Shown here: positions 18,001 to 21,000 of the stretch, piece after piece
Position numbering within the stretch: the first letter of the stretch is position 1
How the letters are laid out: each line of letters begins with the position of its first letter
NCBI RefSeq assembly: GCF_013167455.1
Contig: NZ_CP038328.1
Reading direction: 5' to 3' (one strand)
Source of the DNA: Escherichia coli O157:H7
GTDB taxonomy: Bacteria > Pseudomonadota > Gammaproteobacteria > Enterobacterales > Enterobacteriaceae
Length of the DNA stretch: 64,000 bases
Position numbers: made by a program

Positions 18001-21000
18001 CTTGATACAGAGAAAACCCGATGTCTAAATCGACTTTTTTACACATTCTGATTAGCTCCATCATATTGGTGGCACTAATACAATCATCCGCTTGGGCTAA
18101 CTGTACAAACACACAGATAGGTCAAACTGAAGATGGTCGGACAGCGCTTATTGAGTTCGGAAAAATTAATATGACCGACACCTATTTTGCGCCAGCAGGT
18201 TCACTCCTCGCGACAACGGTCGTACCTCCCACTAACTACACATCAGGTGGCGCGACAGGAAGCTCCGTATTGTGGGAATGTGATGCAACAGATTTGCCAA
18301 ACATCTATTTTCTGGTCGCTACCAATGGCGACGACCGCGTGGGGGGCTTTTACGATGCAGGCGGGCCTGATGGTCTGAGTGATGTCTATGCCACCTGGTT
18401 CGCTTTTGTCGGTCTCAAGCAGACCATGGCGGGCGTGACGCTTGGTCGTTACTGGAAGAAAGTGCCCATCACCAGTTATGCCACTCAGGGAACTAAAATC
18501 CAGATTCGCTTACAGGATATCCCTCCTCTTCATGCTGAGCTTTATCGCATCAGTACGCTACCTGATACATCAGCAACAACAAGTTGGTGCGGTAATAATA
18601 ATACAGATAGTAGTGGAGTCGGATTCGCAAAACCTTCCGGTACAATCTATAACTGTGTTCAGCCCAATGCCTATATTCAGCTTTCCGGTACCAGCGGCAT
18701 TTTATTTGGTCATGATGAGCCCGGCGAAGATAGTTCTGTTCATTGGGATTTCTGGGGTGCTGATAATGGTTTTGGTTACGGAATGCGTTCGGCCAATCGA
18801 CTCTACAACAATGCCACCTGCGTTGCCCGCAGCGCCACGCCGTTAGTATTGCTGCCGACAATTGCAGAAGCACAACTGAATGCGGGCATGGAAAGTACCG
18901 GTAATTTTAATGTCCGCGTCGAGTGTAGTAACTCGGTTCAATCAGGGATTAGCGATACTCAGACAGCATTAGGAATCCAGGTGTCTGAAGGTGCATATAC
19001 AGCGGCGCAAAAACTGGGGATTATCAATAGCAACGGCGGCGTCAGCGCCCTGGTCTCTGATAATTATGACGCAGCAGAGATGGCAAAGGGCGTTGGGATC
19101 TACATTTCTAACAGTGCTCACCCCGATACGGCGATGACGCTGGTTGGTCAACCGGGCATCGCGAAGTTAACCCCCGGAGGAAATGCAGCGGGGTGGTATC
19201 CTGTATTTGAAGGGGCAACATTAGAAGGTGCGACTCACCCCGGATACTCCAGCTATAGTTACTCTTTTATCGCCCGGTTGAAGAAACTGCCAAATCAGAC
19301 AGTCAGTGCGGGAAAAGTGCGGGCAACGGCTTATATATTGGTGAAAATGCAATGAAATCCGTTTTGCTGCTCTTAACCATCTTGTTCGTACAGTCAGTGG
19401 AAGCCGGCATCATGCCGGCTTCTTCACGGATTATTTATCGCGATGGCGATCGGGAAAAGACACTGATGCTGGTCAATACCAATGACTATCCGGTACTGGT
19501 GCAAAGTTGGGTAGATAATGGTGAAGGTTCCCCAGAAGCTGCTTCTCCCCCCTTTGTGGTGCTGCCACCGGTTTTCCGCCTGGCTGCGAGACGAACCCAG
19601 GGGTTGCGGATTATCTATAATCATGACCCACTTCCCCAGGATCGCGAATCTGCATTCTGGTTAAATCTTTATGAAATGCCGCCAGAAACTCCCCATCAAG
19701 ATCCCACACATTTAACGCTGGCAATGAATACGCAACTTAAAATCTTTTACAGGCCAAAATCTGTAACTATGACGCCCCAAGAAGCTATGCGTAAAATAAG
19801 TTGGCATCTGGGTAACGACGGCAGCAGTAGCTATATTGAGCTTAATAACCCAACACCACTGAATATCTCTTTCACCTCCATCAGCATTGGGGCTACAAAG
19901 GTGCAGCAAGAAAGCGATATGATGATAAAACCCTTCAGTCAACGACGGTACTGGTTAGCAAGTAATAACGTTAGTGGTGTGGTTGCGGCGACATATCTCG
20001 ATGATAATGGTGCACAGATAAAACAACAATTAGCGCAATAATGCTCTGAGTGGTATGTAAACTCATCGCGATGGTTCAACGCTAACGAATAACCACTATA
20101 CCCACCTGAAGTACCGGAAGTGGAGAAATGACAAAATCTCTCCACTCCATTTTCCAGTCAAAACACCTCAACGCAGCCAAAAATCGTTAACGAATTGAAT
20201 ATCCACCATCAATGACTAATAGTTGTCCATTGACATAATCTGAAGCGGCACTGGCGAGGAACACCATTGCGCCCATAAGATCCTGTGCCCTTCCCCAGCG
20301 TTGAGCCGGTATACGCCCTTTTATTAACTCTTTTATTTTAGGGTTATTATAAATAATAGCGGTCATTTCACTCACATAATATCCTGGGGCGATACCATTA
20401 ATCTGAATATTATATTCCGCAAAATCATCGGCATACGCTTTGGTCAGCCCCGCTAAAGCATGTTTAGTCGCCGCATACCCTGGCGACCAACGTCCCCCAT
20501 GAAATGACAATACGGAACACATATTAATAATTTTCCCTTTTCTTTGCGGGACAAATATATTCAATGCGGCCTGGCTCATATCGAATGCAGCATTCAGGTT
20601 GAGATTAATCATCGGATCCCAGTCGTTTCGATTGAAATCGATAGGACGATTAATGTTACACACGCCCGCGTTATTGACCAGAATATCTAACTGACCGAAA
20701 CGCTCCAGACACCTATTAATAATGGTGCATGATGCATCAGGTTTTGTTATGTCTATTGTCATAAACTCAACTTCAACGCCTTCATGAGTTAAATGCTTCA
20801 AATATCTATTATCAGGCTCTTTGATGTCAACCAACAATAGATTAGCCCCTGCTTTGGCCAGAGCCGAGCATAAGCCTCTCCCCAGCTCACCCGCGGCCCC
20901 AGTTACGATGGCCACCTTGTTATGTAATGAAAAAAAATCCAATGAAAAATCTTCAATAGAAAAGCTCATATCACACATTGCTCCTTATGAGTAAGTAATA

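What the first reader, a model, noticed from the sequence alone, without database searches (positions are those of the whole stretch)
20187..20969. Orphan KduD-like dehydrogenase without the rest of a kdu/pectin-catabolism locus
The product closely parallels KduD across the catalytic and C-terminal regions, but no kduI or transporter is nearby. It may be an island cargo gene with a different substrate, or possibly an additional ketoreductase linked to the lipid cluster.
Basis: inference. Interest (0 to 1): 0.3.

Follow-up and report, generated by a model that had tools for sequence, protein, structure and literature searches.

The report
Orphan YgcW-like dehydrogenase in O-island 47
This is an intact but uncharacterised short-chain dehydrogenase gene carried on a known E. 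coli O157:H7 genomic island; it is a cousin of the sugar-acid enzymes YgcW and KduD, not a misplaced KduD, and is a fairly ordinary find.

Summary
The ORF is real. It lies on the minus strand at 20187-20969 and encodes 260 aa. RefSeq already annotates it as "SDR family oxidoreductase". It sits in O-island 47 (OI-47) of E. coli O157:H7, next to grvA.

It is a classical short-chain dehydrogenase/reductase (SDR) with an intact N-S-Y-K catalytic tetrad, under strong purifying selection (dN/dS 0.065 within E. coli).

It is not KduD. It fails every curated KduD, IdnO and FabG cut-off. It is 43% identical to K-12 KduD but 54% identical to YgcW. It forms a small clade that is sister to the YgcW family. 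Canonical kduD-kduI is present in 5418 of 5426 E. coli genomes.

None of the YgcW or KduD partner genes lie nearby, so "orphan" is correct.

In all three contexts I could see, its only conserved companion is a 17-gene two-partner-secretion plus cyl-like lipid module. In a Serratia-like host it is the last gene of that module. More distant versions of the module (Kosakonia, Klebsiella) have no such gene after their ycdU-like gene, and the module has its own CylG-like ketoreductase.

Best guess (about 0.4): an optional tailoring oxidoreductase for the module's product. Main rival (about 0.35): an unrelated stand-alone reductase. The substrate is unknown. Interest is low.

The parts
20187..20969 (-). 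Coding sequence of the 260-aa classical SDR (Z1532/ECs1275 by position, next to grvA z1531/ECs_1274). Gly-rich motif TGAAGELG at residues 23-30, NNAG at 99-102, catalytic S152, Y165 and K169, and the tetrad Asn within 'NLNLN' (residues 122-126).
20970..21656 (.). AT-rich 687-bp spacer between the SDR gene and the divergently transcribed grvA. It presumably holds both promoters. AAGGAG lies 11 nt upstream of the ATG at 20969. No convincing sigma-70 consensus site was found for the SDR strand.
20099..20179 (-). Stable extended stem-loop just after the SDR stop codon, between the convergent SDR and fimbrial chaperone genes (core 11-bp stem 20119-20146). It has no U-tract, so it is a possible bidirectional transcript end or stabiliser.
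   Evidence: -30.2 kcal/mol, z -3.33, 0 of 200 shuffles as stable
21657..22965 (+). grvA (21657-22469, ToxR-like regulator) and the fidL/yqeJ-like lipocalin partner (22474-22965). They are the divergent neighbours of the SDR gene in E. coli and in L004, but are absent near the Serratia-like orthologue.
14083..20041 (+). Chaperone-usher fimbrial operon that separates the SDR gene from the TPS-lipid module in E. coli. It is convergent with the SDR gene.
1..12026 (-). Window part of the 17-gene TPS plus cyl-like lipid module. In window coordinates: TpsA 8214-12026, TpsB 6506-8125, AcpS 6122-6490, CylG-like ketoreductase about 5347-6108, FabZ 4795-5343, ACP 4492-4773, GcvT-like aminomethyltransferase 3296-4456, double ketosynthase 664-3222, and a second ketosynthase cut at the window start. 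The module continues to ycdU beyond the window. It is the only conserved companion of this SDR clade.

Best explanation
Shown: the gene encodes an intact, selectively maintained, cytoplasmic classical SDR (Rossmann fold, N-S-Y-K tetrad). It belongs to a small clade that is sister to the YgcW family, within the KduD/IdnO/YgcW branch of hydroxy-acid/ketone oxidoreductases. It is a third paralogue, present alongside the canonical kduD in nearly all carrier genomes (ygcW co-presence was not checked in O157), and it is resident cargo of OI-47. Inferred: it acts as an optional tailoring (or precursor-supplying) oxidoreductase for the product of the adjacent two-partner-secretion plus cyl-like lipid module. 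It would use NAD(P)(H), probably NAD(H), to interconvert one secondary alcohol and ketone on a small amphipathic or hydroxy-acid-like moiety. It is not inferred to take part in pectin/KDG catabolism or in beta-ketoacyl-ACP chain elongation.
For: Identity and integrity: Pfam and NCBIfam hits and a conserved tetrad. dN/dS is 0.065 within E. coli. Against the L004 and Serratia-like orthologues, synonymous sites are saturated while pN is about 0.1. Clade placement: the seven-member clade is monophyletic in 97/100 bootstraps. The YgcW family excludes it in 99/100. Both exclude KduD and IdnO in 100/100. Association with the module: in the Serratia-like host (assignment), FHA through the ycdU-like gene and then this SDR are colinear on one strand. 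The SDR starts 130 bp after the ycdU-like gene. The block is kept across three different right-hand flanks. No grvA, fidL or fimbriae lie within the roughly 40 kb seen there. In E. coli and L004 the SDR lies in the same island and in the same orientation as the module. E. coli versus Serratia-like identity is 80% for the SDR, within the 63-88% range of the 16 module proteins compared, which fits co-divergence. In E. coli the SDR is in 401 genomes and the module ketosynthase in 382. Changed pocket: three arginines typical of KduD and partly of YgcW (KduD R97, R98, R200) are N, I and Y here. The lid segment is more hydrophobic (IIYNNPKIKELIK versus YgcW TRsNPETNqRVL).
Against: The Kosakonia, Klebsiella and L039 versions of the same 17-gene module have no such SDR after their ycdU-like gene. 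The SDR clade comprises only about 6 protein clusters, against 131 for a module marker protein. So the module does not need it. In E. coli it is a separate transcription unit about 8 kb from the module, beyond an oppositely oriented fimbrial operon. Its homologues are sugar-acid enzymes, and one loop arginine (R160) is retained. In the Serratia-like host, co-transcription is unproven, and a weak hairpin lies in the 130-bp gap. Only three independent contexts were visible. No expression or biochemical data were found.
Confidence: 0.4

Rival explanations
1. It is stand-alone metabolic or detoxifying cargo: an NAD(P)H-dependent reductase/dehydrogenase for a free hydroxy-acid, sugar acid or xenobiotic ketone. 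On this reading it is unrelated to the lipid module and merely hitch-hikes on the island.
For: All its homologues are sugar-acid SDRs. It is monocistronic in E. coli, with its own 687-bp upstream region and a downstream hairpin. The more distant modules sampled show no such gene. A loop arginine (R160) sits where sugar-acid SDRs place a carboxylate-binding Arg. E. coli KduD itself is promiscuous, reducing hydrocortisone and doxorubicin with NADH.
Against: No transporter, kinase, isomerase or oxidase partner is present in any context, unlike YgcW (yqcE/ygcE/ygcU) and KduD (kduI). It was found next to the module in 3 of 3 visible contexts, and its divergence matches the module's. Three pocket arginines are lost.
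Confidence: 0.35
2. It is functionally tied to the divergent GrvA/FidL co-component sensor. On this reading it makes or removes a steroid, bile-acid or lipid ligand that is sensed by the lipocalin-like FidL partner.
For: The gene shares a divergent promoter region with grvA in E. coli and L004. FidL-type partners are modelled as lipid/bile-binding lipocalins. KduD-type SDRs can reduce steroids.
Against: No grvA or fidL homologue lies near the Serratia-like orthologue. GrvA and FidL diverge far faster than the SDR between E. coli and L004 (50% and 49% versus 82%). There is no direct evidence.
Confidence: 0.06
3. It is an additional FabG/CylG-type beta-ketoacyl-ACP reductase used in chain elongation by the lipid cluster.
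For: There is a Pfam KR-domain hit (E 9.6e-13). The Gly-rich motif TGAAGELG has G-x-x-G-x-x-G spacing rather than the classical TGxxxGxG, and from my own knowledge that spacing resembles extended SDRs and PKS ketoreductase domains. The gene is physically linked to the cluster.
Against: It is only 26% identical to the cluster's own ketoreductase, whose top solved relative is CylG. TIGR01830 scores 193.8, below the cut-off of 297.75. It groups with YgcW/KduD/IdnO. The other modules examined show no such gene next to them.
Confidence: 0.04
4. It is a displaced kduD orthologue whose partner genes lie elsewhere in the genome.
For: The best-named family hits are KduD models, and the best solved structure is KduD.
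Against: It fails TIGR01832 (249.8 versus 338.85) and NF006528 (231.9 versus 430), whereas true KduD passes both (457 and 555). It lies outside the KduD clade in 100/100 bootstraps. Canonical kduD-kduI is present in 5418 of 5426 genomes.
Confidence: 0.02
5. It is a functionless relic of a former ygcW-like operon.
For: It is orphaned from all partner genes. It has an unusual Glu in the Gly-rich loop, where 112 of 112 YgcW-family members have Gly.
Against: dN/dS is 0.065. The reading frame is intact and 260 aa long in E. coli, L004, the Serratia-like host and L028. The tetrad and NNAG motif are conserved.
Confidence: 0.03

Closest known systems
YgcW (E. coli b2774; uncharacterised SDR, often labelled 'putative 2-deoxy-D-gluconate 3-dehydrogenase')
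   Same: This is the closest family at 54-59% identity, with the same length. It shares the N-terminal FS(L/M)DFFSL motif, WDPM, the GG(Q/R)WSP loop and the GGY..R C-terminus. It is the sister group in the tree.
   Different: The finding's clade is not nested within YgcW (99/100 bootstraps). It lacks the conserved yqcE-ygcE / ygcW-ygcU neighbourhood. The Gly motif is TGAAGELG rather than TGGNsGLG. There is an Asp after beta-2. The lid segment is IYNNPKIK rather than TRsNPETN. YgcW's own substrate is unknown.
KduD (2-dehydro-3-deoxy-D-gluconate 5-dehydrogenase; TIGR01832, NF006528; PDB 4z9y)
   Same: Same fold and tetrad, full-length alignment, 41-43% identity. It is the best-named NCBIfam and PDB match.
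   Different: The protein scores below all curated cut-offs and falls outside the clade. There is no kduI nearby. KduD R97, R98, R154 and R200 correspond to N, I, W and Y here.
IdnO/Gno gluconate 5-dehydrogenases (NF005983; PDB 3cxr, 5u9p)
   Same: Same SDR branch, 36.5% identity to K-12 IdnO, E about 1e-48 to solved Gno structures.
   Different: NF005983 scores 200.6 against a cut-off of 408. It lies outside the clade, and no idn genes are nearby.
CylG/FabG beta-ketoacyl-ACP reductases
   Same: Same superfamily. A true CylG-like ketoreductase is encoded in the same island.
   Different: Only 26% identical to that ketoreductase. TIGR01830 scores below its cut-off. It sits on a different branch of the tree.

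Membership tests
Classical SDR superfamily (PF00106/PF13561) | Pfam score above the gathering threshold over the whole domain | tested here: met
   adh_short_C2 176.5 bits against 27; adh_short 169.5 bits against 26.6
Classical SDR superfamily (PF00106/PF13561) | Catalytic tetrad Asn-Ser-Tyr-Lys and the NNAG motif | tested here: met
   S152, Y165, K169 and NNAG 99-102 are invariant in the clade and align with those of KduD. The tetrad Asn is assigned by eye to the conserved 'NLNLN' segment (residues 122-126)
Classical SDR superfamily (PF00106/PF13561) | Gly-rich cofactor motif TGxxxGxG | tested here: inconclusive
   The motif is TGAAGELG: the third Gly is Glu in 5 of 7 clade members, while it is Gly in 112 of 112 YgcW-family members and in KduD. 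The resulting G-x-x-G-x-x-G spacing also occurs in the island's CylG-like ketoreductase (TGASGDIG), so cofactor binding is plausible but untested
KduD (TIGR01832 / NF006528 / NF005390) | Score at or above the curated cut-off of a KduD model | tested here: not met
   249.8 against 338.85; 231.9 against 430; 294.8 against 369. K-12 KduD scores 457.3 and 554.8
KduD (TIGR01832 / NF006528 / NF005390) | Groups with bona fide KduD in a phylogeny | tested here: not met
   The clade plus YgcW excludes KduD (K-12 and 4z9y) in 100/100 NJ bootstraps
KduD (TIGR01832 / NF006528 / NF005390) | Genomic linkage to kduI or another hexuronate/pectin gene | tested here: not met
   None within about 20 kb in any context. 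The true kduD-kduI pair is elsewhere in 5418 of 5426 genomes
KduD (TIGR01832 / NF006528 / NF005390) | Activity on 2,5-diketo-3-deoxygluconate / KDG | not testable with these tools
   Needs an enzyme assay
YgcW family | Nested within the YgcW clade (orthology) | tested here: not met
   The YgcW family is monophyletic without the finding's clade in 99/100 bootstraps. Identity is 54-59%, against 76% among YgcW orthologues
YgcW family | Conserved neighbourhood: MFS yqcE and FGGY kinase ygcE divergent, FAD oxidase ygcU downstream | tested here: not met
   Present in E. coli and Izhakiella YgcW loci. Absent around the finding and its orthologues
FabG/CylG 3-oxoacyl-ACP reductase (TIGR01830) | Score at or above the curated cut-off, and similarity to the cluster's own ketoreductase | tested here: not met
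   193.8 against 297.75. 26% identity to the island's ketoreductase, whose top solved hit is CylG
IdnO/Gno gluconate 5-dehydrogenase (NF005983, NF005488) | Score at or above the curated cut-off | tested here: not met
   200.6 against 408 and 207.2 against 369. K-12 IdnO scores 538.5

The most novel reading that the evidence does not exclude
The SDR is the enzyme that links the island's secreted cyl-like lipid to virulence regulation. On this reading it oxidises or reduces a hydroxyl/keto group on that lipid (or on a host steroid or bile compound). That would create or destroy the ligand read by the neighbouring GrvA/FidL lipocalin sensor, which controls LEE and acid-resistance genes in EHEC.
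Probability: 0.05. Interest if true: 0.65.

Novelty: new member of a known kind. Interest (0 to 1): 0.2.

Why it matters
The stakes are modest. First, the result guards against naming this gene 'KduD', since its best-named hits are KduD models that it does not pass. It places the gene as a distinct sister clade of the equally uncharacterised YgcW family. Second, it nominates the gene as a candidate accessory enzyme of an unstudied pathway in OI-47. That pathway is a two-partner-secretion system joined in conserved synteny to a cyl/granadaene-like lipid synthesis and export module. OI-47 is already known to carry the virulence regulator GrvA. The larger open question is what that module makes, not the SDR itself.

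Tried and rejected
- Scans of species-representative genomes and of metagenome contigs with the protein returned only 99-100% E. coli-type copies or 25-40% distant SDRs. They gave no new contexts.
- Two exact-sequence look-ups of the Serratia-like KS406 protein failed. A neighbouring 322-aa protein worked instead.
- Contigs carrying the 62-82% orthologues P0002, P0006 and P0007 are under 2 kb, so they show no context.
- A tblastn search of plasmids found only chromosome pieces mislabelled as plasmids, plus YgcW-type genes.
- A blastn comparison of flanking DNA between E. coli and the Serratia-like host was meant to trace the rearrangement. Homology stops 25 nt upstream of the ATG and 3 nt after the stop codon.
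- A literature search for Z1532/ECs1275 found nothing relevant, and the GrvA regulon paper (PMC4719443) is not held.
- The consensus promoter scan found fewer sites than shuffled sequence, so it was uninformative.
- I did not run structure prediction or fold search. The full-length match to solved KduD (E 1.7e-58) already fixes the fold, and the tool returns no coordinates for pocket analysis, so it could not separate the hypotheses.
- I considered and rejected these readings: displaced kduD, elongation ketoreductase, and pseudogene (see the rival explanations).
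Full report
**1. Where the window comes from and what is at the coordinates**

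The window is the E. coli O157:H7 chromosome around pgaABCD-dgcT, that is, O-island 47 (OI-47). The queried kilobase is 100% identical to many O157:H7 genomes. OI-47 is described as z1528-z1556 in EDL933, with grvA = z1531 (PMC8565820 and PMC10877973).

An ORF occupies 20187-20969 on the minus strand and encodes 260 aa. An upstream in-frame ATG at 20978 would add three residues. All orthologues are 260 aa, and DNA homology to the Serratia-like copy begins only 25 nt upstream of the 20969 ATG. RefSeq calls the gene "SDR family oxidoreductase", WP_000010422.1. By position, next to grvA (z1531/ECs_1274), it should be Z1532/ECs1275. That locus-tag assignment is my inference.

**2. What kind of protein it is**

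Pfam adh_short_C2 and adh_short match at E 1e-50 to 1e-52. NNAG (residues 99-102), S152, Y165 and K169 are invariant across orthologues, and the tetrad Asn is assigned to the conserved NLNLN segment.

Between two E. coli alleles pS is 0.117 and pN is 0.008, giving dN/dS 0.065. Against the L004 and Serratia-like orthologues, synonymous sites are saturated while pN is about 0.1. The gene is present in 401 of 5426 complete E. coli genomes (full-length in 400), and it is listed as an intact CDS in every row shown. It is a functional gene, not a relic.

One peculiarity is the Gly-rich loop, which reads TGAAGELG. Glu replaces a Gly that is invariant in 112 of 112 YgcW-family proteins and in KduD. 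The two most divergent clade members (P0006, P0007) keep Gly. The resulting G-x-x-G-x-x-G spacing is also seen in the island's own CylG-like ketoreductase (TGASGDIG). From my own knowledge, it resembles the motif of extended SDRs and of PKS ketoreductase domains. I therefore expect cofactor binding to be retained, but this is untested.

An Asp directly after strand beta-2 (LLVDIK) is specific to the clade. By the Kallberg-Persson cofactor rules, cited from memory, it suggests an NAD(H) preference. This is a low-confidence inference.

**3. Is it KduD?**

No.

- The best-named hits are KduD models, but all fall below the curated cut-offs: NF005390 294.8 against 369, TIGR01832 249.8 against 338.85, and NF006528 231.9 against 430.
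- Authentic K-12 KduD scores 457.3 and 554.8 on the last two models.
- Identity is 43% to K-12 KduD, 41% to the solved KduD 4z9y, 36.5% to IdnO, and 54-59% to a large family of 258-262-aa proteins.
- That family is YgcW. Its E. coli member P0064 sits between yqcE/ygcE and ygcU near eno, and RefSeq labels the gene ygcW. Izhakiella has the same neighbourhood.
- In a neighbour-joining tree of 40 sequences with 100 bootstraps, the finding and six relatives (P0001-4, P0006, P0007) form a clade in 97/100. The YgcW family is monophyletic without them in 99/100. The two together exclude KduD and IdnO in 100/100.
- The kduD-kduI pair is core, present in 5418 of 5426 genomes. At least 393 of the 401 carrier genomes therefore also hold the true kdu genes.

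The gene is a distinct paralogue. Caveats: the tree is distance-based, has few outgroups, and uses only the top 120 database hits.

**4. The substrate pocket**

A mutagenesis and MD study of E. coli KduD lists the residues that line its pocket (PMC10827548). I mapped them onto the alignment.

- KduD R97, R98 and R200 correspond to N105, I106 and Y207 in the finding. R200 is Arg in 108 of 112 YgcW-family members.
- KduD R154 corresponds to W161, as it does in YgcW.
- One arginine remains in the Ser-Tyr loop (R160, in GGRW). It lies close to where sugar-acid SDRs place a carboxylate-binding Arg, for example Arg143 of L-threonate 3-dehydrogenase (PMC12994016).
- The lid segment is IIYNNPKIKELIKGR, against YgcW's TRsNPETNqRVLdH. 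It is more hydrophobic and more basic.

The substrate is therefore probably not the one used by YgcW or KduD. Its identity cannot be read from the sequence.

**5. Genomic context**

*In E. coli.* The layout is fixed even in alleles that differ by 3-4% in DNA. In window orientation the order is:

- the lipid module and TpsB/TpsA on the minus strand (to 12026);
- a 207-aa gene and a chaperone-usher fimbrial operon on the plus strand (13417-20041);
- the SDR on the minus strand;
- a 687-bp AT-rich spacer;
- grvA and a fidL-like gene on the plus strand;
- pdeT/vmpA and dgcT on the minus strand.

A stable stem-loop follows the SDR stop codon (-30.2 kcal/mol, z -3.3). The gene therefore looks monocistronic in E. 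coli.

*In L004/L005.* An unnamed relative with an 82% identical SDR has the same layout, but beyond fidL it has a different outer flank of PTS sugar genes.

*In the Serratia-like host.* In JGI assemblies the SDR is 80% identical. A flanking pyrimidine-nucleoside phosphorylase is 98% identical to the Serratia fonticola protein, which is the basis for calling the host Serratia-like.

- The SDR is the last gene of one colinear array, all on one strand: TpsA, TpsB, AcpS, ketoreductase, FabZ, ACP, GcvT-like protein, double ketosynthase, second ketosynthase, 322-aa protein, ABC ATPase, 218-aa protein, FtsX permease, LolA-like protein, 462-aa protein, acyltransferase, YcdU-like protein, then the SDR.
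- It starts 130 bp after the ycdU-like gene.
- Three different right-hand flanks follow it.
- No grvA, fidL or fimbrial genes occur in the roughly 40 kb seen there.
- E. coli versus Serratia-like identity of the 16 module proteins compared is 63-88%. The SDR's 80% lies inside that range, as expected if it has travelled with the module.

*Evidence against a tight link.*

- The same 17-gene module in Kosakonia radicincitans, in Klebsiella and in contig L039 has no such SDR after its ycdU-like gene. I could not see upstream of TpsA in those loci.
- The SDR clade has only about six 90%-identity clusters, none named Kosakonia or Klebsiella. A Pfam-less module marker (317 aa) has 131 clusters across many genera.
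- The module also encodes its own ketoreductase. Its best solved relative is CylG, and it is only 26% identical to the finding.

**6. Interpretation**

The only conserved neighbour of this clade is the TPS-lipid module. The GrvA/FidL adjacency is lineage-specific. That favours, without proving, a role as an optional tailoring or precursor-supplying oxidoreductase for the module's product (about 0.4).

The main rival is a stand-alone reductase that hitch-hikes on the island (about 0.35). It is supported by the gene's separate transcription unit in E. coli, its sugar-acid ancestry, and its absence next to the more distant modules sampled. Lesser rivals are:

- a link to GrvA/FidL ligand chemistry (0.06);
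- an extra elongation ketoreductase (0.04);
- a decaying relic (0.03);
- a displaced KduD (0.02).

*Shown:* the gene's integrity, its family placement, its non-membership of KduD, IdnO, FabG and orthologous YgcW, its orphan status, and the synteny facts. *Inferred:* cofactor preference, substrate class, and any functional coupling.

**7. Novelty and score**

This is an already-annotated, uncharacterised SDR in a well-known island. The new information is its correct family placement and its synteny with the module. It is a new member of a known kind, and interest is about 0.2. The module itself is more intriguing than the SDR, but it lies outside this finding.

Noticed in passing
window 1-12026 (minus strand), continuing left of the window (L007 880-12405): A two-partner-secretion pair (FHA-like TpsA of 1270 aa plus ShlB-type TpsB) is fused in conserved synteny to a cyl/granadaene-like lipid pathway. 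The pathway genes are AcpS, a CylG-like ketoreductase, FabZ, ACP, a GcvT/CylF-like aminomethyltransferase, a double ketosynthase, a second ketosynthase, an ABC/FtsX exporter, a LolA-like protein, a malonyl transacylase and YcdU. The same 17-gene order occurs in a Serratia-like host, Kosakonia, Klebsiella and contig L039. A marker protein for the module has only 131 clusters. I found no paper on its product.
   Followed up: partly
L035 (K-12 1094245-1096829), compared with L007 10481-12405: K-12's pseudogene ymdE and the gene ycdU are the last two genes of this module. ymdE is a fragment of the malonyl transacylase gene, and ycdU encodes the terminal membrane protein. They lie directly next to IS3D and dgcT. 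The K-12 state therefore looks like an IS3-associated deletion of the island, rather than OI-47 being an insertion in O157. ymdE-ycdU were reported as core genes of mastitis-associated E. coli (PMC4951805).
   Followed up: partly
window 21657-22965; L033 6498-13787: The SDR's divergent neighbours are GrvA and a FidL-like protein, a VtrA/VtrC-type sensor pair. In K-12 the true kduD-kduI genes lie about 5 kb from the paralogous yqeI-yqeJ cassette. GrvA and YqeI are 32% identical; FidL and YqeJ are 21% identical. This repeated proximity of an SDR and a sensor cassette is probably coincidental, because the Serratia-like orthologue has no such neighbour.
   Followed up: partly
window 20099-20179: A very stable extended stem-loop lies between the convergent SDR and fimbrial chaperone genes (-30.2 kcal/mol, z -3.3). 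It has no U-tract on either strand.
   Followed up: partly
window 15483-18005: The fimbrial usher ORF is intact in the window (840 aa). It is annotated as frameshifted in the otherwise near-identical O157:H7 strain TR01. The coordinate offset between the window and TR01 also changes by 5 nt across this stretch.
   Followed up: no
L039 17847-19204; L040 17835-19171: In Kosakonia and in contig L039, the module is followed by a conserved pair on the opposite strand: a 172-aa protein and a short EAL-domain protein of 270-277 aa. This echoes the EAL gene pdeT/vmpA at the other edge of the E. coli island.
   Followed up: no
L003 15478-16779: The Serratia-like flanking pyrimidine-nucleoside phosphorylase is about 83% identical to Bacillus proteins. 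That is unusually high for a proteobacterial gene and suggests a horizontally acquired nupC-ushA-pdp block.
   Followed up: no
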